In this document: positions 1 through 13,816 of the stretch, in pieces
Layout of the letters: every line of letters begins with the position of its first letter
Numbering within the stretch: position 1 is the first letter of the stretch
Source of the DNA: Gammaproteobacteria bacterium
Lineage (GTDB): Bacteria > Pseudomonadota > Gammaproteobacteria > Pseudomonadales > JAUIET01
Length of the DNA stretch: 64,000 bases
Reading direction: 5' to 3'
Assembly (NCBI GenBank): GCA_030431775.1
Contig: JAUIHW010000003.1
Coordinates: 109,190 to 173,189, forward strand
Position numbers and translations under genes: made by a program
The notes under the pieces: model-generated
What the model saw: the letters and a program-made list of their open reading frames with translations, nothing else
Database searches by the model: none
What the model was told of the DNA's origin: nothing

Positions 1-1859
1 GCATCAAATGCGGCCATACCACTGGCGGTTACCGAGGCCGACCTCGTTGCCTGTTGGCTCATGCCACTGAAATCGGTTTGCTGAGTCGCAAACATAACTT
101 TGCAGGTTTCCAGCCCCAGTTGACCAAGGTATTGATCACTGAGACCTGGTCTCAACTTTCGCCTGCCATGACCAAGACGGATAGTTTTACCCGCCTGTAA
201 TTCCTCGCTGGCTTTTCGCGGTGGGTAGAACTGCTGCACTGAGTGCATGGAATCGAGCCAAAGAATACTGAAGAAAACCGGCTGATCTACGCTGTTATTT
301 TTGATTTCCACCACCAGGCTGTCTTTAGGGCCAAACACAGTAGTTCCCCCGTTAGCAAGGGTAAGCTTGTCCGCCGCAGATCGCTTGTAAATATTGACGC
401 TGACATCCAGCAAAGACAAGGGATTGTCCAGGGCCAGTGTACGCCGGTAACGGGCCAATGTTTCCAGATTGCTCAGTGTTGCGTCCACTGCGTTTCGTTC
501 ACTTTGCGCATGCACTGGGCTTGCCAGCTTTCCGTCAGTATCCAGCACAACCCAGCTGGCGTTCGTAATGCCCTGGTAACGCGGTGGATTTTCTTCTATC
601 AGAACCTGCTCACTCGCCTGTAGCACCCTGACCTGACAATCGGCGAGGCTGGCGTTGCTGGCAACGGTCAATAAACGTGAACGCTCAATGCTGCTTTCTA
701 GCTGGGCACGGTCACTTGCGCTCAACTTTTCCAGATCGATGCTCAGCGGGTCAGGAACCACAGCGTCGGCCTGCAAAGAGGCCCGGCAACCGGCGGCTAT
801 TCCTTTGCGGTTCTTGGGTAACAGTGCTTCTGCCCGTAACCCACCGACCTTGGCAATAGTGACGTTCGCGATCGGCTTGCTTGCTTCTGTAGACTTGGTG
901 CCTGGGGGATACAAAGCCCAACGCGAACCAACCCGGACGCCATGCGCTGCACCGCCACCGAGCACCAATGTGTTCTTGACGATTTTCTCAACAGGTAAGC
1001 CATTCAGCGGCTCAATATCACGAGTGCCGAACAGCTCGCGGTCGAGGCGACCTTCTATCTGCGGATTCTGGCCATTCACCAGGCTTGGCACTTTGCTGCT
1101 AACCTGCTCAAACACGTCCCGATAGGTGCTGCCTGGTTGTGCTCGCATCAACGCCTCATTCAGGCAATAGGTCAGCACCCCGTGCTTATACTTCATACTG
1201 CCTTCGCTGAAGTATCGCTCTTTGGAAGTTTGCATATCACGGCAACCGGAGATAACGACGTATTTATTGCTCAACTGCAACCAGCCCCCGGGGCCTTTTC
1301 GGGTCGCTGTTTTTCCAATTTTTTTGGCCGGCCGCGGGCGAAGCTGATCAGGGACTCCACGAACCTTCACGGCCGGGTTTATGCTGCGAGTCATGGTGCC
1401 TGAGTGGCAAGCGTCGAAAATCAGCGTAATATTGGCCGTTTTCTTGGCCAGCTTTTCTAGCCAGGCATTGAACTGGTTGTCACGTATCTCGCGGTAATCG
1501 GCCGTACCATCCGCTTTGGGCTTGGAATCATCCGACGGCAGAATGCAATTATCCTTCCCACTGCCTTCATCGGTGTATTTGGTTTTTGTCGAGCAGCGGT
1601 GACCATGCCCGGAGTAGTGGAACAATACAACATCATTTTTCTGCACGGCACGCAGTAGTTGCTCCATCGCATCCAGAATACCGTCGCGAGACGCTTTTTC
1701 ATTGAACAGTTCAACAATCTCGCCGCTGGTAAAGCCAAACTTGTTGCACAAGGTAGTCTTCAGCAACTTGGCATCATTAACGCAACCACCAAGCTGGTAT
1801 TTGGCGCCGAGATAAGGGTATTTGTTAATCCCGATGATCAGCGCGTGTTTTGCGGGCAT
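1..1859 (-). CDS. Caspase-fold cysteine protease (peptidase C14, metacaspase/orthocaspase-like) with a long C-terminal extension; the 3' end lies beyond the window
   Basis: This ORF is absent from the ORF track because no stop codon is reached. My reverse-strand translation from ATG 1859..1857 stays open to position 3 (619 codons): MPAKHALIIGINKYPYLGAKYQLGGCVNDAKLL..VVLFHYSGHGHR..ITLIFDACHSGTMTRS..HGVLTYCLNEAL. HYSGHG and DACHSG are the His and Cys dyad contexts of C14 peptidases. The C-terminal part (..DQPVFFSILWLDSMHSVQQFYPP..) resembles the DUF4384 module often fused to bacterial caspases; this comparison is from memory and was not searched. Confidence 0.85.
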   Translation of the reverse strand, partial: MPAKHALIIGINKYPYLGAKYQLGGCVNDAKLLKTTLCNKFGFTSGEIVELFNEKASRDGILDAMEQLLRAVQKNDVVLFHYSGHGHRCSTKTKYTDEGSGKDNCILPSDDSKPKADGTADYREIRDNQFNAWLEKLAKKTANITLIFDACHSGTMTRSINPAVKVRGVPDQLRPRPAKKIGKTATRKGPGGWLQLSNKYVVISGCRDMQTSKERYFSEGSMKYKHGVLTYCLNEALMRAQPGSTYRDVFEQVSSKVPSLVNGQNPQIEGRLDRELFGTRDIEPLNGLPVEKIVKNTLVLGGGAAHGVRVGSRWALYPPGTKSTEASKPIANVTIAKVGGLRAEALLPKNRKGIAAGCRASLQADAVVPDPLSIDLEKLSASDRAQLESSIERSRLLTVASNASLADCQVRVLQASEQVLIEENPPRYQGITNASWVVLDTDGKLASPVHAQSERNAVDATLSNLETLARYRRTLALDNPLSLLDVSVNIYKRSAADKLTLANGGTTVFGPKDSLVVEIKNNSVDQPVFFSILWLDSMHSVQQFYPPRKASEELQAGKTIRLGHGRRKLRPGLSDQYLGQLGLETCKVMFATQQTDFSGMSQQATRSASVTASGMAAFD

Positions 1860-1964
1860 AGTTTATACGCTCGACGACTAATCAATTAAAGTAAGACGTA
1901 GGTTGAACACAGTCGTCGCCGTGCGGGACTGGGCAAAACAGGCCAGCAATCGGTTTCCAGTGCT

Positions 1965-2186
1965 TTAACGATTATCTGGTGTGCCCGAGCGGTTGTCCGG
2001 TGTGCCCGAGCGGTTATCCGGGGTACCCGAACGGTTATCCGGCGTGCCCGAGCGATTATCTGGCGTGCCCGAGCGATTATCCGGAGTACCAGAACGGTTA
2101 TCCGGCGTGCCCGAGCGATTATCCGGAGTACCAGAACGCTCATCTTCAACACTGTTGTTGCTGCTCTCTTCAACCATATCAGACAT
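1965..2186 (-). CDS. 73-aa acidic micro-protein: a 16-aa N-terminus followed by eight perfect RSGTPDN heptads
   Basis: ATG 2186 is preceded by a GAGGTGG Shine-Dalgarno-like box (reverse strand ..aaaaGAGGTGGtggcgATG). The translation is MSDMVEESSNNSVEDE+(RSGTPDN)x8+R, with stop TAA at 1967..1965. Track ORF 1965..2327 is the same frame with a longer N-terminus that lacks an SD. A + strand frame (VPERLSG)x8 is equally open, so the coding strand is favoured but not proven. Confidence 0.5.
   Translation of the reverse strand: MSDMVEESSNNSVEDERSGTPDNRSGTPDNRSGTPDNRSGTPDNRSGTPDNRSGTPDNRSGTPDNRSGTPDNR
1968..2138. repeat. Tandem 21-bp repeat, 8 copies (+ strand unit approx GTGCCCGAGCGGTTATCCGGC)
   Basis: Direct reading shows the copies are head-to-tail and differ only at every third nucleotide (G/A, C/A, G/A, G/A, G/A, C/T, N). 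Confidence 0.95.
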
Positions 2187-2306
2187 CGCCACCACCTCTT
2201 TTCGTTTTACTCGCGGGGTGATCAAGCTTAAACTGGCGTCCAGGTAATTACCAGCAATATCGCCTAAACAGGCTGCGTACTCAAGCCGCTCGCTTGTGGC
2301 AGTCGC

Positions 2307-4325
2307 TTGATCTCCGGTGCGATTCATTTGTTTCAGCGTCTGGTTAGTGAAATTCGAAGAAGAAAGGTGTTCCGTGTGGTAACGGCCTATGCGGTGGTTG
2401 CCTGGTTGATTTTACAAGTGGGTGTCATTGTTGCCGAGCCACTGGCCCTACCCGACTGGACGGTACGTGCCTTGATCATCGCCGCGATTGTCGGCTTCCC
2501 TGTCTCATTCGTTCTGGCCTGGGTAATTGATATTCGCCCGGAAGGCCTGATCTTTGACCTGCCATTGCTGGCGGGCACTGGGAACGAGCGAAAATCAAAA
2601 AAAACTGATTGGATCTTTGCGAGCATGCTGGTCGTTGTGCTGATCGGTGGCGCTTACTACCTGATCACGATGTTACTGAATGAGCTGAGCACCCCAGACT
2701 CTACACACCTGGAATCAGCGAACCACGGCTCAGCATCCCCTAATTCTATTGCGGTGTTGGCATTCGAAAATTTTGGAGGCGATGAAGGCACCGGCTATTT
2801 TGCGGCTGGATTAGCCGAAGAAATCCTGTTGCTTCTGTCCAGGCTGGAAGAGCTGAAGGTTGCGTCGCGCACTTCATCTTTTCAGTTTCGTGACCACCAG
2901 ATTGATATCCGGGAAGTCGCGAGCCGTCTGGGAGTAGCCTTGATTCTGGAGGGCAGTGCGCGGGAATACAATCAGCGCGTGCGAGTCGCAGCGCAACTGG
3001 TAGATGGTAGTAACGGTTTCAATCGCTGGGGGGCAACATTTGAACGTTCTGTTGACGATATTTTCGCTATTCAGCAGGAAATCGCCAGCAACATCGTGCA
3101 GCAGCTGGAACTGGTCATTTCCCGGGGGTCACAGCAGCAGTTGCAGTCCCGGGCGACGGAGTCTAATGAAGCCTACCTGCTCTATTTGCAGGGTGTAGGT
3201 CGTTTGCGAAGCTCTAACGATGCCGATGTGATGCAAGCCGCCGCCCGATTTTTTGATCAGGCAATCAGTCTGGATAATGAGTTTGCCAAAGCCTACGCTG
3301 GCAAATGCGAAGCACTCCTTCGCCTTTATCAAATCGGTAACAGGGTAGGCGACTTTGACACAGCCGAGCAGGCCTGCAACCAGGCCAACGAACTGGCGAA
3401 TGGGTCAAGCAGCGAAGTCAGCCTCGCGCTGGGCAAGCTGTATATGCAACGCGGCTGGGTCGAACGTGCCGAGCAACACCTGAAAACCGCGATGGGCGTT
3501 GCCTCTGACCCCACGGACAGCTACATACAACTGGGAGAGCTGATGGCCGCCCAGGGGCGGCATGGGGAAGCAGAGCAATTCTTAAAAACCGCGCTTGCCA
3601 GCAACCAACATTACTGGGCGGCTCAGGAAGCCCTTGCCAGTTACTACTACCGGAGCAAGCGCTATCGGGAAGCCATAGACGCTTATGAAAAAGCAACATT
3701 GCTCGCACCCAATGTTGCTACCGTATTTGGGGGAAAGGGAGCAAACTACTGGATGCTTGGCGAGTTTGACCAAGCGATTGCGGCTTACGAAGAGTCGCTT
3801 CGGATAAAACCATCCAGACTTACCTACACGAATATCGGGTCTTTGCATTATTACGCCGGTCGTTTTGAGCAGGCTGTGGAGAATCAGAAAAAAGCGCTGG
3901 TGTTTGCACCAGACGACCACCGCATTTGGGGTCGCCTGGCAGAGGCTCTACTGTTTGCCGGGCAGCAGGACGAAGCGACTGCCGCCTACCAAAAAGCCGC
4001 TGAGCTTGCCGAACAGAACCTCACAGTCAACGAACGGGACTGGAAAACAGCGAGCCTGCTCGGTATTTACTATGCGCACCTGCTTCGCAACGATGAAGCC
4101 AGAGAGCTGTCGGCCCTGGGTGTGGAACTGTCGGGCGGCGACCCGGAATCGCTGTACCTGCAGGCCCTGGTCTACGTGCAATTGGGCAATTCTGAATTGG
4201 CGTTGGAGTTTCTTGAATCGGCGGTATCGCAAAATGAGCAGTTCAGCCTGTTTATTAAAGCCGACCCCTTTCTGCAGACACTACAGGAGCGCCCACGCTT
4301 CAAGGCATTGCTGCAAACTGACTGA
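2307..4325 (+). CDS. Membrane-anchored tetratricopeptide-repeat (TPR) protein
   Basis: The N-terminus RRRKVFRVVTAYAVVAWLILQVGVIV.. plus a second hydrophobic helix is followed by many TPR-like units (AYLLYLQGVGRL, AKAYAGKCEALLRLY, YWAAQEALASYYYRSKRYREAIDAYEKA, ...). The start codon is uncertain; the track uses TTG at 2307. Confidence 0.75.
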   Translation: MISGAIHLFQRLVSEIRRRKVFRVVTAYAVVAWLILQVGVIVAEPLALPDWTVRALIIAAIVGFPVSFVLAWVIDIRPEGLIFDLPLLAGTGNERKSKKTDWIFASMLVVVLIGGAYYLITMLLNELSTPDSTHLESANHGSASPNSIAVLAFENFGGDEGTGYFAAGLAEEILLLLSRLEELKVASRTSSFQFRDHQIDIREVASRLGVALILEGSAREYNQRVRVAAQLVDGSNGFNRWGATFERSVDDIFAIQQEIASNIVQQLELVISRGSQQQLQSRATESNEAYLLYLQGVGRLRSSNDADVMQAAARFFDQAISLDNEFAKAYAGKCEALLRLYQIGNRVGDFDTAEQACNQANELANGSSSEVSLALGKLYMQRGWVERAEQHLKTAMGVASDPTDSYIQLGELMAAQGRHGEAEQFLKTALASNQHYWAAQEALASYYYRSKRYREAIDAYEKATLLAPNVATVFGGKGANYWMLGEFDQAIAAYEESLRIKPSRLTYTNIGSLHYYAGRFEQAVENQKKALVFAPDDHRIWGRLAEALLFAGQQDEATAAYQKAAELAEQNLTVNERDWKTASLLGIYYAHLLRNDEARELSALGVELSGGDPESLYLQALVYVQLGNSELALEFLESAVSQNEQFSLFIKADPFLQTLQERPRFKALLQTD

Positions 4326-12481: not shown

Positions 12482-12697
12482 TTTCTATACTCCGTAAGTC
12501 ACCGCAGTCTACCCAAAGTTGCTTAAGGCGTCACCACAGCGGCTTCACCGACAGTAGATGAACGGAGCATGCAGGCGACACGCGACATTGGTCACAGAAA
12601 CGAAAAGCCTGTCACGGTTCGGCGGGCTACAACTGGAAGTTTTGCATTCTTCTTGTATGTTTATTAAACGACATTCACGGTTTACGAGATATTGACC

Positions 12698-13816
12698 ATG
12701 ACCAATAAACTGACCGCTTTAATTGCTGCTTCCGGCCTGTGCATGGCGATCACTGTACCCCCGGCTTATGCAGCGGCTGAAAACCAAAACGAAAATGAAC
12801 AAGAAGAGAACGTGCTGGACCTGGATGCCATCTGGGCAAGTTTGCAGCAGTATTTGGGCAGCTTCTTTGTTGAACAGAACAAGGAACGCATTGCCGAAGC
12901 ACTGGATGCCGCCAAGACCGCTGCTGAGAAACGCGAAAATGGGCAGCAAACAAAGCCTACAGTACCGACAGCACAAGCCCCTGCAACACCTGTAAACAAC
13001 TCGGTTCCGCAGGCGGATTGGACAGCGGCCGCCAACAATTACCGCAACACCCGTTGGGGTCGGCAATTTCAGTTTTCCTACGGCAATGACTCGACCACAA
13101 ACGCGAATCCGCCGCTAACACAGCAGCCTCAGACGACAGGCGCTACTGAACAAAGAAAGAGTCAGCCGACCCAAACCTACACCGTGCCACAAACCATTGG
13201 CGGCAGCAGCATTAGTGACCGCGGCATCGCAGCCTGGCCAACGTTCCAACCGAGCGTACCCACTGCGCGACCCAGCCGGGAAGCGCCAGAGGTTGTCGCC
13301 CGCAGCCCCTTCGGCGCTAACAATTCACCAACGCGATCAACCCCAGTGCAAAAACCGGCTCCACAGTCCAAACCTCAGCCTGTGGCAAAGCCCGAACCCC
13401 AGCCTGTACCAAAGTCCGAACCACAGCCTGTGGTGGCACAGCCCAAGCCGCAGCCTGCAGCAGAAGCCGATCAGGTGGCTCAGGTTCAGCCGGCACAGAA
13501 TCCACAACCCGTGCAGGAACCGGAGCCTATTCCCCAGCCGGAGCCAGTGGTTGGCGAAGCCAAATTATCCTGGAGCATCCCGACCAAGCGTGAAAATGGC
13601 GATGACCTCAGTCTGGCCGAAATCGCGGCCTACGAGATCTACGTTACTGCCGAAAACGCCGGCACCAACCAGACCATCCGGGTGGATAATCGAAACCAGA
13701 CTCAGTACACGGTGGAACCGCTGAGCGCCGACACCTACTACTTCTCCATGGTGACCATTGATGTGGAGGGCGTCTACAGCGAACTGTCGCAGGTGGTCAG
13801 CAAAACCATCGATTAA
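12698..13816 (+). CDS. Secreted protein with a P/Q-rich low-complexity linker and a C-terminal fibronectin-III-like beta-sandwich domain
   Basis: The signal peptide is MTNKLTALIAASGLCMAITVPPAYA-AA. The linker contains KPQPVAKPEPQPVPKSEPQPVVAQPKPQP (about 24-bp imperfect DNA repeats). The C-terminus LSWSIPTKRENGDDLSLAEIAAYEIYVTAE..YTVEPLSADTYYFSMVTIDVEGVYSELS is FN3-like. Confidence 0.6.
   Translation: MTNKLTALIAASGLCMAITVPPAYAAAENQNENEQEENVLDLDAIWASLQQYLGSFFVEQNKERIAEALDAAKTAAEKRENGQQTKPTVPTAQAPATPVNNSVPQADWTAAANNYRNTRWGRQFQFSYGNDSTTNANPPLTQQPQTTGATEQRKSQPTQTYTVPQTIGGSSISDRGIAAWPTFQPSVPTARPSREAPEVVARSPFGANNSPTRSTPVQKPAPQSKPQPVAKPEPQPVPKSEPQPVVAQPKPQPAAEADQVAQVQPAQNPQPVQEPEPIPQPEPVVGEAKLSWSIPTKRENGDDLSLAEIAAYEIYVTAENAGTNQTIRVDNRNQTQYTVEPLSADTYYFSMVTIDVEGVYSELSQVVSKTID

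What the first reader, a model, noticed from the sequence alone, without database searches (positions are those of the whole stretch)
1968..2138. All sequence differences between the eight 21-bp copies fall on one nucleotide phase, which is the shared wobble position of one + frame and one - frame
- Reading the copies side by side, the only variable positions are every third base (coordinates equal to 0 mod 3).
- These are third codon positions both for the + frame (VPERLSG x8, GTG/GTA CCC/CCA GAG/GAA CGG/CGA TTG/TTA TCC/TCT GGN) and for the - frame (RSGTPDN x8).
- Both translations are therefore perfectly invariant, while the remaining + frame is variable (CPSGCPV / CPSGYPG / YPNGYPA ...).
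- Seven of 21 positions vary and 14 are frozen. That is the signature of an old repeat kept by purifying selection on a protein, not a recent slippage expansion or a non-coding repeat.
- The pattern cannot distinguish the two strands. The SD+ATG context and the clean stop favour the - strand.
Basis: seen in the sequence. Interest (0 to 1): 0.6.

Follow-up and report, generated by a model that had tools for sequence, protein, structure and literature searches.

The report
Tandem heptapeptide gene beside bacterial caspase
A small, unannotated gene on the minus strand encodes eight identical copies of the peptide SGTPDNR, kept identical by selection while the silent DNA positions drifted; it belongs to a conserved bacterial gene cluster of caspase-like proteases, for which it is probably a built-in substrate or regulator.

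Summary
Eight 21-bp units (1968-2135) differ only at the seven positions of one codon phase; 14 positions are frozen (P about 3e-5).

The interpretation, an old coding repeat under purifying selection with the minus strand favoured, is supported, and the strand is now settled. In 47 of 79 related loci a small ORF with tandem Arg-containing peptide units lies in the same gene cluster. Sites that are 2-fold in the RxGxPDx frame but 4-fold in the opposite frame almost never show transversions (2 of 52 variable columns, against 114 of 160 at sites 4-fold in both frames). The opposite frame contains stop codons in two loci. Its codon adaptation in the window (0.48) is below that of all 41 reference genes.

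The gene encodes a 73-aa protein, a 16-residue leader plus (SGTPDNR)x8, ending exactly on Arg. It has no Pfam or NCBIfam family and no detectable homologue by protein search.

It sits head-to-head with a membrane TolB-like/TPR sensor gene and upstream of a metacaspase-like protease, followed by a CHAT protease.

My best explanation is a disordered protein with one Arg cleavage site per unit, cut by the Arg-specific caspase. It then serves either as a decoy or buffer, or as a source of heptapeptides. The function is inferred, not shown.

The parts
1968..2135 (-). Array of eight 21-bp units encoding (SGTPDNR)x8. Read from 2138 it is (RSGTPDN)x8 plus R.
   Evidence: All variation is at third codon positions and the peptide units are identical.
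1965..2186 (-). Small ORF of 73 aa: MSDMVEESSNNSVEDER + (SGTPDNR)x8. The TAA stop (1965-1967) directly follows the last Arg. An alternative ATG lies at 2177.
   Evidence: Codon adaptation is 0.75, within the range of 41 window genes. No Pfam or NCBIfam match. The exact sequence is not in the 15-billion-protein collection.
2190..2199 (-). Shine-Dalgarno-like AGAGGTGGTG, followed by 3 nt (GCG) and then the ATG at 2186.
   Evidence: Read directly from the sequence; flags an SD-like motif upstream of the start.
1860..1964 (-). 105-nt spacer between the repeat ORF and the caspase gene, with no terminator-like site.
   Evidence: One search finds 0 terminator-like sites in 1700-2500. This is consistent with co-transcription, which is an inference.
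1..1859 (-). First 619 codons of a 652-aa metacaspase-like protein (Peptidase_C14 N-terminal domain followed by beta-rich C-terminal domains). Catalytic His85 and Cys151; GCVND and FDACHSG motifs.
   Evidence: translation. (PF00656, E = 7e-33). (P0001 is 100% identical and 652 aa). (best PDB sequence matches are the metacaspases Yca1, AtMC4 and TbMCA2). (AF2 model with pTM 0.86; the best structural matches are type II metacaspases).
1338..1361 (-). Codons for caspase residues 167-174, R-G-V-P-D-Q-L-R. This is the family-conserved linker motif between the p20-like and p10-like parts (R167 and R174 invariant, P170 nearly invariant) and the candidate autoprocessing site. Its Arg-to-Arg spacing of 7 equals the repeat period.
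   Evidence: invariant columns; linker sequences; the repeat PSSM's best hit falls here in 45 of 64 relatives; low-confidence flexible segments at 153-158 and 178-192. For the window's own protein the match is weak.
2187..2306 (.). 120-bp divergent intergenic region between the repeat ORF and the TPR gene.
   Evidence: The head-to-head arrangement of repeat ORF and TPR gene recurs in gammaproteobacterial loci, even where the TPR gene lies at the far end of the cluster.
2307..4325 (+). 672-aa membrane protein: conserved N-terminal motif (..EIRRRKVFRV..), three predicted TM helices, a TolB-like domain (..NSIAVLAFENF..) and TPR repeats.
   Evidence: (many TPR families). (TPR models; weak match to TIGR04510 over residues 202-337). 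(conserved N-terminal half). The topology is inferred from the sequence.

Best explanation
SHOWN. The array is the body of a real, translated, minus-strand gene for a 73-aa low-complexity protein: a 16-residue acidic leader followed by eight identical SGTPDNR units.

SHOWN. The gene belongs to a conserved but unannotated family of small tandem-repeat proteins (3-16 units of 6-14 residues, one Arg per unit as a rule). The family occurs only inside a specific gene cluster:
- a membrane TolB-like/TPR sensor;
- the repeat protein;
- a metacaspase-like C14 protease with beta-rich C-terminal domains (Pfam DUF4384 is precomputed for many family members, though not for the window's protein);
- a CHAT protease;
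- either a signal-peptide-bearing trypsin-like protease or a 150-aa multi-TM protein (c2).

INFERRED mechanism. The cytoplasmic C14 protease has the His/Cys dyad and the metacaspase-type motifs GCVND and FDACHSG, so it should cut after Arg. Each unit offers one Arg in a Pro/Gly/Asp context. That context resembles the protease's own conserved inter-domain linker (R-x-x-P-x-D-x-R, with the same 7-residue Arg-to-Arg spacing) and the conserved N-terminal tail of the c2 membrane protein. The small protein would then be a dedicated multi-site substrate.

Its most likely role is a competitive decoy or buffer that absorbs leaky activity of a dangerous Arg-specific protease and sets an activation threshold. 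This would be analogous to PCi, which is both substrate and inhibitor of PCaspase. Complete cleavage would also release eight identical heptapeptides, SGTPDNR, since the protein ends exactly on the last Arg.

Whether the intact protein or the peptides carry the function is unresolved. My confidence that this is a minus-strand coding gene of this family is about 0.97. My confidence in the protease-substrate mechanism is about 0.45.
For: Coding and strand:
- Wobble-locked variation in the window and across the family (31/22/259 of 334 columns).
- 2-fold versus 4-fold test over 46 arrays. Columns 2-fold in the repeat frame and 4-fold in the opposite frame: 52 variable, 2 with transversions. Columns 4-fold in both: 160 variable, 114 with transversions. 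Columns 4-fold in the repeat frame and 2-fold in the opposite frame: 13 variable, 6 with transversions.
- The opposite frame has stops in L005 and L044. A start and a stop are present for every repeat ORF not cut by a contig edge.
- Codon adaptation is 0.75 against 0.48.

Family and context:
- Arrays occur in 47 of 79 caspase loci.
- The cluster composition is conserved.
- The gene after the window's caspase is a CHAT gene.
- Negative control: 80 loci with TPR homologues but no caspase have no such ORF, with one exception.

Protease:
- The caspase aligns with Arg/Lys-specific metacaspases across the GCVNDA, HYSGHG and DACHSGT motifs and structurally.
- C14 members other than animal caspases are strictly Arg/Lys-specific at P1, and type II metacaspases autoprocess in the p20-p10 linker (PMC5756287).
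- Bacterial caspase-like proteases have been shown experimentally to be promiscuous and Arg-specific (bioRxiv 10.1101/2024.10.24.620036).
- A CHAT-to-caspase cascade with a small substrate-inhibitor, PCi, is known (bioRxiv 10.1101/2023.06.23.546230).

Substrate mimicry:
- A leave-one-out PSSM of the heptad finds its best match at the linker motif, +17 from the D.CHSG motif, in 45 of 64 caspases.
- The c2 tail carries a conserved [ST]-R-[GA]-G-P-x-[DE].
- By my count of the sequences printed, 24 of 44 predicted proteins end exactly on Arg, including the window's.
- There is no terminator between the repeat ORF and the caspase gene.
Against: - There is no experimental evidence for expression or cleavage.
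- The linker mimicry is strong in the CHAT740/c2 clade and in L018, L046 and L051, but weak for the window's own caspase. P0001 gives no positive PSSM score; its linker R-G-V-P-D-Q-L-R shares only the R..R spacing and a Pro-Asp pair shifted by one residue.
- The 45 of 64 hits are homologous proteins, so they amount to roughly one independent observation.
- In most family members Arg is followed by Pro (RPGPPD..). From my own knowledge of trypsin, Arg-Pro bonds are usually cut poorly by Arg-specific proteases. That would favour a non-cleaved pseudosubstrate or a binding motif.
- The tightest genomic partner of the repeat ORF is the TPR gene, not the caspase. Where the TPR gene sits at the other end of the cluster, the repeat ORF goes with it.
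- Units in Gemmatimonadota (12-14-mers such as GGDRDPxAKPTS) are linked to the family by context, not by sequence similarity.
Confidence: 0.5

Rival explanations
1. The repeat protein, or its heptapeptides, is a ligand or adaptor of the adjacent TPR sensor rather than primarily a protease substrate. TPR domains bind short linear peptides, and the pair would work like a receptor gene with its peptide gene. Proteolysis might only mature the ligand.
For: - The repeat ORF is head-to-head with the TPR gene in the gammaproteobacterial loci, or directly downstream of it in Gemmatimonadota and some gammaproteobacteria. It follows the TPR gene when that gene lies at the far end of the cluster (L007, L010, L011, L012, L016, L042, L050).
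- Units are identical within a genome but differ between lineages (RSGTPDN, REGTPDD, RSGKPDD, RPGPPDT...). That is the pattern expected of a co-evolving peptide and receptor pair.
- Precedent: Rap (TPR) receptors with tandemly duplicated Phr propeptides (PMC11343458).
Against: - The TPR part is predicted to be periplasmic. There are three TM helices with a positively charged N-terminus, and relatives carry a cytoplasmic kinase or TIR domain before the TM segment.
- The repeat protein has no signal peptide, and no exporter appears among the recurring genes of the clusters.
- TPR homologues without caspase clusters lack the repeat ORF, so the pair is not autonomous.
Confidence: 0.25
2. The selected reading frame is the plus-strand frame that shares the wobble position (VPERLSG x8), as a small ORF or upstream ORF co-directional with the TPR gene.
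For: Within the window both frames are perfectly invariant, and a GTG-started ORF at 1981..2247 exists.
Against: - Family-wide 2-fold versus 4-fold test.
- Stop codons in that frame in L005 (5) and L044 (2), and no start codon in that frame in about half of the arrays.
- Ser TCN/AGY switching in L001 makes that frame alternate between Leu and Glu.
- Codon adaptation of 0.48 is below all 41 window genes (0.64-0.78), with only the less-used Arg codons CGA and CGG.
Confidence: 0.01
3. It is a non-coding or recently expanded slippage repeat, for example a regulatory repeat in the divergent promoter region of the TPR gene, and the phase pattern is a coincidence.
For: The array lies about 170 bp from the start of the TPR gene. 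A sigma-70-like match falls inside it, which is probably chance.
Against: - P is about 3e-5 for the phase pattern in the window alone.
- The same pattern is seen in 37 independent arrays.
- Positional orthology with neutral-rate wobble divergence between L046 and L051.
- No Rfam match.
Confidence: 0.01
4. It is a precursor of a modified peptide natural product (RiPP-like), or a structural or chaperone-like disordered protein unrelated to the neighbouring proteases.
For: Tandem identical core peptides occur in some RiPP precursors (own knowledge: fungal dikaritins, cyanobactins). The TPR protein weakly matches TIGR04510, 'putative peptide modification system cyclase', far below its cut-off.
Against: - No modifying enzyme recurs in the cluster; the recurring genes are proteases, the sensor and the c2 membrane protein.
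- There is no conserved leader: leaders are 2-28 residues long and unrelated to one another.
- The ORF is absent from TPR homologue loci that lack caspases.
Confidence: 0.08

Closest known systems
PCi in the SAVED-CHAT / PCaspase cascade of Haliangium ochraceum type III-B CRISPR (bioRxiv 10.1101/2023.06.23.546230)
   Same: A CHAT protease gene and a C14 caspase-like protease gene share a cluster with a small protein that is both cleaved by the caspase and inhibits it. A Ser/Thr kinase is also part of that cluster, as it is in the Gemmatimonadota versions here.
   Different: PCi is predicted to have a CI-2-like fold and is not a tandem repeat. Its cascade is triggered by cyclic oligoadenylate through a SAVED domain, and no SAVED, CRISPR or CD-NTase component was seen here. 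Here the sensor is a membrane TolB-like/TPR protein. No cleavage has been shown here.
Type IV Thoeris caspase-like protease (bioRxiv 10.1101/2024.10.24.620036)
   Same: It is a bacterial C14 protease shown to require Arg at P1 and to be promiscuous. That makes a built-in Arg-rich decoy plausible. Some sensors in this family carry an N-terminal TIR-like domain (L034, L039, L063).
   Different: Thoeris IV is a two-gene TIR plus caspase system activated by N7-cADPR, with no repeat protein, CHAT or TPR sensor described. PADLOC gives only a generic 'caspase' hit for the window protein.
RRNPPA quorum sensing with tandemly duplicated Phr propeptides (PMC11343458)
   Same: A TPR-repeat receptor gene lies next to a small gene whose product carries several copies of a short peptide, which proteases release.
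   Different: Those systems are found in Bacillota and their phages. Their propeptides have Sec signal peptides, are matured outside the cell and are re-imported by Opp to a cytoplasmic receptor. Here there is no signal peptide and the TPR domain is membrane-anchored and predicted periplasmic. There are 3-16 near-identical copies, and caspase and CHAT proteases are encoded alongside.
Eukaryotic polyprotein peptide precursors cut at basic residues (yeast alpha-factor/Kex2, neuropeptide precursors; own knowledge)
   Same: Identical short peptides are arranged in tandem, each ending at a basic cleavage residue. Selection acts on every copy.
   Different: Those precursors travel the secretory pathway and are cut by subtilisin-like convertases at dibasic sites. 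Here there is a single Arg, a cytoplasmic C14 protease, and a bacterium.
EACC1-caspase two-gene conflict system (PMC7159879)
   Same: A small 5' gene is followed by a gene whose product has an N-terminal caspase domain.
   Different: EACC1 is a single-TM domain protein. The repeat protein has no TM helix, and the window caspase scores 39 bits against NF047832, whose cut-off is 140.
PatS/PatX/HetN RG(S/T)GR peptides and the CHAT protease HetF in Anabaena (own knowledge; HetF protease activity on PatU3 in PMC9457339)
   Same: A small protein ends in an Arg-bracketed Gly-rich motif that acts as a peptide signal, in an organism where a CHAT protease controls the same developmental pathway.
   Different: There is no RGSGR motif and no tandem array in PatS. 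No HetR was looked for. No link between HetF and PatS processing is established. This is a lead from memory only.

Membership tests
Protein-coding tandem repeat under purifying selection | Differences between units are confined to synonymous (third-codon) positions of one frame. | tested here: met
   7 of 7 variable columns in one phase; 31/22/259 across the family.
Protein-coding tandem repeat under purifying selection | 2-fold sites of the coding frame show transitions only, while 4-fold sites show transversions. | tested here: met
   2 of 52 variable 2-fold columns have transversions, against 114 of 160 columns that are 4-fold in both frames.
Metacaspase/orthocaspase-type C14 protease (the neighbouring gene) | Peptidase_C14 fold with a catalytic His-Cys dyad. 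| tested here: met
   PF00656, 114.6 bits; H85 and C151 invariant; model matches AtMC9, AtMC4 and Yca1.
Metacaspase/orthocaspase-type C14 protease (the neighbouring gene) | Acidic S1 pocket residues: the Asp of the GCxND motif and the Asp two residues before the catalytic Cys. | tested here: met
   One search aligns GCVNDA and FDACHSGT with Yca1 GCINDA and FDSCHSGT. D29 and D149 are invariant. Assigning these residues to the S1 pocket rests on my own knowledge of the TbMCA2 structure.
Metacaspase/orthocaspase-type C14 protease (the neighbouring gene) | Cleavage after Arg or Lys. | not testable with these tools
   Needs an enzyme assay. Literature precedent: PMC5756287 and the preprint read.
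RRNPPA-type receptor and propeptide pair | The propeptide has an N-terminal secretion signal. | tested here: not met
   leaders are 2-28 residues long, acidic or polar, with no hydrophobic core. The window leader is MSDMVEESSNNSVEDE.
RRNPPA-type receptor and propeptide pair | A cytoplasmic TPR receptor fused to an HTH or phosphatase output domain. | tested here: not met
   the partner is a membrane protein with three TM helices, a TolB-like domain and TPR repeats. No HTH or Rap-type domain was found.
SAVED-CHAT / PCaspase / PCi cascade | CHAT protease and C14 protease genes in one cluster. | tested here: met
SAVED-CHAT / PCaspase / PCi cascade | A SAVED sensor domain and a cyclic-oligonucleotide source (CRISPR type III or CD-NTase) nearby. 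| tested here: not met
   only the CHAT domain is found by Pfam; the SAVED_CHAT model matches only over a 220-residue stretch that lies inside the Pfam CHAT domain. No cyclase or Cmr genes appear among the recurring genes.
SAVED-CHAT / PCaspase / PCi cascade | The small protein is a CI-2-like folded inhibitor. | tested here: not met
   The sequence is a Pro/Gly/Asp/Arg-rich tandem repeat with no family match.
EACC1-caspase two-gene system | The 5' gene encodes a single-TM EACC1 domain, and the caspase matches the EACC1-associated type. | tested here: not met
   No hydrophobic segment in the small protein. NF047832 scores 39.2 bits against a cut-off of 140.
Tandem polyprotein peptide precursor | Identical core peptides, each bounded by a protease site, with the last unit ending at the C-terminus or at a site. 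| tested here: met
   (SGTPDNR)x8 with the stop directly after the last Arg. By my count of the printed sequences, 24 of 44 family proteins end on Arg.
Tandem polyprotein peptide precursor | Release of the peptides has been demonstrated. | not testable with these tools
   Needs mass spectrometry. The expected SGTPDNR monoisotopic mass is about 745.34 Da (my own arithmetic).

The most novel reading that the evidence does not exclude
The cluster is a Gram-negative peptide alarm system. When the caspase/CHAT cascade fires in a stressed or infected cell, it chops the repeat protein into many copies of a lineage-specific heptapeptide (here SGTPDNR). Cell lysis releases the peptides. They are then read in the periplasm of kin cells by the matching TolB-like/TPR sensor, whose cytoplasmic face (a short conserved motif, a TIR domain or a Ser/Thr kinase, depending on lineage) primes or triggers the same cascade. 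This would be an RRNPP-like peptide and receptor logic coupled to caspase-type cell death, with the copy number of the array setting signal strength.
Probability: 0.1. Interest if true: 0.9.

Novelty: new variant of a known kind. Interest (0 to 1): 0.62.

Why it matters
Natural substrates and regulators of bacterial caspase homologues are largely unknown. The few characterised enzymes are promiscuous Arg-specific executioners whose control is poorly understood.

A conserved small gene that presents 3-16 Arg sites in a linker-like context, encoded inside a sensor-caspase-CHAT cluster across several phyla, is a directly testable candidate for such a substrate or regulator.

The family is also a useful case for annotation. 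Automated gene calling treats it unevenly: my predicted products are absent from the protein collection, one related ORF is called from a far-upstream start and two are called in the wrong frame. Yet codon-phase statistics alone prove it is coding and identify the strand.

It is also a clean natural example of a tandem repeat kept identical at the peptide level for longer than a species split, without DNA homogenisation.

Tried and rejected
- Protein homology searches with the 73-aa product found nothing, even at E <= 10. The cause is presumably composition-bias correction.
- Exact look-ups of the window product and of seven orthologues found none in the collection.
- Pfam, NCBIfam and PADLOC give no family for the small protein. 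Rfam finds nothing in 1700-2500.
- A degenerate DNA pattern for two consecutive RSGTPDN units found nothing in the JGI metagenomes. No close relative with the same unit is available; the nearest caspase relative (55% identity, L161) has REGTPDD.
- My first array finder, which worked at the DNA level, missed the synonymously scrambled arrays. I replaced it with a peptide-level finder.
- I considered co-variation between unit position 4 and a caspase His-Cys loop (GKPD in L001 and GTAD in the window). L003, L005, L017 and L054 do not follow it, so I dropped the idea.
- The linker-mimicry PSSM gives no positive score on the window's own caspase. I kept this as evidence against the best explanation.
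- Searching with the N-terminal half of the TPR protein returned 80 loci without caspases or repeat ORFs. These serve only as a negative control.
- The EACC1-caspase system and the RiPP-precursor reading were rejected; see the membership tests and the rival explanations.
Full report
**1. The observation**

Window 1968-2135 holds eight head-to-tail 21-bp units with no indels. Aligned in register, seven columns vary and fourteen are invariant. All seven variable columns have coordinates equal to 0 mod 3.

- The chance that 7 variable columns out of 21 all fall in one phase is 2.6e-5.
- At least nine substitution events are needed, all in one phase (P = 1.5e-4).
- The minus frame reads (R)SGTPDN x8 and the wobble-sharing plus frame reads VPERLSG x8. 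Both are invariant. The other plus frame varies.
- Mean pairwise difference is 3.6 of 7 wobble sites (0.51), against 0 of 14 other sites.
- Units 4 and 7, and units 6 and 8, are identical. Lag-3 comparisons are slightly more similar than other lags, giving a weak 63-bp higher-order periodicity.

**2. Which strand**

The gene immediately downstream on the minus strand (start at 1859, running off the left end of the window) encodes a Peptidase_C14 protein. Its full length is 652 aa (P0001). An alignment of 30 homologues (A1) retrieved 79 loci from species-representative genomes. In 47 of them a small ORF made of tandem peptide units lies in the cluster.

Examples of units: RSGKPDD, RAGTPDD, REGTPDD, REGEGDH, RAGDPDI, RNTPDD, RPGKPDN, RPGRPDT, RPGPPD[TEK], RPGPAE, and TRPGPPDVNAPA. 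In Gemmatimonadota and related phyla the units are 12-14-mers such as GGDRDPxAKPTS.

Several lines of evidence pick the RxGxPDx frame:

- Across 37 arrays, variable columns by codon position of that frame are 31 / 22 / 259 of 334 each.
- The decisive test uses sites whose degeneracy differs between the two wobble-sharing frames (46 arrays):
  - 2-fold in the RxGxPDx frame, 4-fold in the opposite frame: 52 variable columns, 2 with transversions (one search does not list them; the D/E swaps in L025 and L051 are the kind of change expected).
  - 4-fold in both frames: 160 variable columns, 114 with transversions.
  - 4-fold in the RxGxPDx frame, 2-fold in the opposite frame: 13 variable columns, 6 with transversions.
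- The opposite frame contains stop codons inside the units in L005 and L044 and lacks any start codon in about half of the arrays.
- Ser is kept through TCN/AGY switching and Arg through CGN/AGR switching (L001, L046, L051, L068).
- In the window, the minus frame has a codon adaptation of 0.75, while 41 reference genes span 0.64-0.78. The plus wobble-sharing frame scores 0.48 and uses only the less-used Arg codons CGA and CGG.

The gene is therefore on the minus strand: ATG at 2186, preceded by AGAGGTGGTG, with TAA at 1965-1967, giving 73 aa.

**3. Age and mode of evolution**

- L046 and L051 have caspases that are 85% identical, with 4-fold third-position identity of 0.59. Each has five units that are still positionally orthologous: same-position units differ by 2.8 nt, other-position units by 5.45 nt, and the identity permutation ranks 2nd of 120. 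My tally of their same-position wobble divergence (14 of 35 sites, 0.40) equals that of the flanking gene (0.41), whereas paralogous units differ by 0.60-0.69. Those units are older than the species split and have evolved by ordinary point substitution under very strong peptide-level constraint, with no concerted evolution on that time scale.
- L054 and L161 (also 85% identical) both encode REGTPDD, but with 7 and 5 units.
- Other arrays are young or recently expanded. Wobble difference is 0.16-0.21 in L014, L003 and L163. L001 consists of eight copies of a 42-bp two-unit block.

The family therefore shows birth and death of units. The window's array (0.51) is among the old ones.

**4. What the protein is**

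The product is MSDMVEESSNNSVEDER followed by (SGTPDNR)x8, and it ends on the last Arg.

- It has no signal peptide and no hydrophobic segment, and it is rich in Pro, Gly, Asp, Arg, Ser and Thr. It is presumably disordered, which is an inference.
- Family members have unrelated leaders of 2-28 residues and 3-16 units. By my count of the sequences printed, 24 of 44 end exactly on Arg.
- It has no Pfam, NCBIfam or PADLOC family and no detectable homologue by protein search.
- Neither it nor seven orthologues are in the 15-billion-protein collection with my predicted boundaries.
- Where gene callers do call something, they either start far upstream (L161) or pick the wrong frame (L162 and L163, 'VVSPMIE..').

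**5. Context**

The recurring cluster consists of:

- a membrane TolB-like/TPR protein;
- the repeat ORF;
- the C14 protease (about 660 aa; Pfam DUF4384 is precomputed for many family members);
- a CHAT protein of one of two types;
- either a trypsin-like protease with a signal peptide or a 150-aa multi-TM protein ('c2').

The gene after the window's caspase is of the CHAT type that is paired with the trypsin-like protease.

The repeat ORF tracks the TPR gene. In gammaproteobacteria it lies head-to-head with it, even when the TPR gene is at the far end of the cluster (L007, L010, L011, L012, L016, L042, L050). In Gemmatimonadota and a few gammaproteobacteria it lies directly downstream of it.

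The cytoplasmic end of the sensor varies. It is a short conserved RRRKVFRV motif with three TM helices in the window, a TIR-like domain in L034, L039 and L063, and a Ser/Thr kinase in Gemmatimonadota. This implies that the TolB-like/TPR part faces the periplasm, which is an inference.

Eighty loci found through the N-terminal half of the TPR protein, none of them with a caspase, lack such ORFs, with one exception. The small ORF is therefore specific to the caspase-linked subfamily.

**6. Mechanism (inferred)**

*The protease.* It matches metacaspases best in sequence (Yca1, AtMC4, TbMCA2) and in its AF2 model (pLDDT 82, pTM 0.86; the top structural hits are type II metacaspases). It keeps His85 and Cys151 and the motifs GCVND and FDACHSG.

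- All characterised non-animal C14 proteases cut after Arg or Lys, and type II metacaspases autoprocess in the p20-p10 linker (PMC5756287).
- Two bacterial caspase-like proteases have been shown or proposed to be promiscuous Arg-specific executioners.

*The resemblance between unit and linker.* The family's linker contains two invariant Arg residues seven residues apart with a Pro between them (R167, P170, R174). This is the same period as the repeat.

- A leave-one-out PSSM of the heptad finds its best match in the whole protein at exactly that motif in 45 of 64 relatives, for example RSGPPDTR and RTGPPDDR.
- The c2 membrane protein carries a similar conserved motif in its N-terminal tail.
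- Because the caspases are homologous, this is roughly one independent observation for the linker plus one for c2. For the window's own protein (RGVPDQLR) the match is weak.

*Proposal.* I propose that the repeat protein is a dedicated multi-site substrate of the Arg-specific protease. Its most likely role is a decoy or buffer that sets a threshold, as PCi does for PCaspase. Complete digestion would yield eight identical heptapeptides.

*Points against.*

- Arg is followed by Pro in most relatives.
- The genomic link to the TPR gene is tighter than the link to the caspase.
- There is no experimental evidence.

The main rival is that the peptide units are ligands of the TPR sensor, an RRNPP-like logic (compare the tandemly duplicated Phr propeptides of PMC11343458). 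The two ideas are not mutually exclusive.

**7. Novelty**

The gene family and its cluster do not match any named system I could test (EACC1-caspase, SAVED-CHAT/PCaspase/PCi, type IV Thoeris, RRNPPA; see the membership tests). Full-text literature searches found no description of it.

I rate it a new variant of a known kind: a small protease-linked substrate or regulator, or a tandem peptide precursor.

Noticed in passing
window 13361-13457 (inside ORF 12692..13816, + strand): A second coding tandem repeat (TRF periods 24 and 51) encodes a Pro-rich stretch, ..KPQPVAKPEPQPVPKSEPQPV.., in a 374-aa protein with an N-terminal signal-like sequence. It looks like an ordinary Pro-rich linker.
   Followed up: partly
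L162:2-229 and L163:149-445; also L161:2634-2909: Automated gene calls for the orthologous small ORFs are wrong. L162 and L163 are called in the variable +1 frame (VVSPMIEVVSPMIA..). L161 is called from a far-upstream TTG. The true products (RSGKPDD and REGTPDD repeats) are missing from the protein collections.
   Followed up: yes
L034:3438-5684, L039:3250-5505, L063:3440-5674; L062, L065-L079 (TPR genes): The cytoplasmic N-terminus of the TolB-like/TPR sensor is modular. It is a TIR-like domain (..FVFVSYSHAD..) in three gammaproteobacterial loci and a Ser/Thr kinase (HRDIKPDN) in Gemmatimonadota. In the window it is a short RRRKVFRV motif plus three TM helices.
   Followed up: partly
L015:4466-4918 and 20 other loci (family 'c2'): A 150-aa multi-TM protein with no Pfam family follows the CHAT gene in one cluster type. 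Its N-terminal tail has a conserved MGRSI.. start and an invariant Arg in [ST]-R-[GA]-G-P-x-[DE], which resembles the repeat unit. It may be a protease-activated membrane effector.
   Followed up: partly
L020:5571-5795: A degenerate, non-tandem member of the family: a small ORF between the TPR and caspase genes carries two RPGPP[DE] motifs separated by unique sequence. This suggests the motif matters rather than the periodicity.
   Followed up: no
L001:13-348: The array of 16 RSGKPDD units is built from eight 42-bp two-unit blocks whose halves use different codons at six of the seven positions (Ser TCG against AGY, Lys AAA against AAG, and so on). This is a two-unit higher-order repeat.
   Followed up: partly
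L110:4700-5051: This is the only TPR-homologue locus without a clear caspase that has a repeat: a Lys/Ala-rich (..KKKATKKK..) stretch followed by RGGPSGGA x5 or more, running off the contig end, with a weak CHAT-like match nearby.
   Followed up: no
window 1967-2131, + frame (NDYLVCPSGCPV..): The third plus frame, whose peptide varies, has an artificially high codon adaptation (0.90) because of the few codon types in the repeat. This is a reminder that codon adaptation on short repeats is unreliable taken alone.
   Followed up: no
window 1971-1999, - strand: A sigma-70-like match (CGGACA, 17 nt, GATAAT) lies inside the array, upstream of the caspase gene. It is probably chance: 2 sites were found against 0.6 expected in shuffles.
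   Followed up: no
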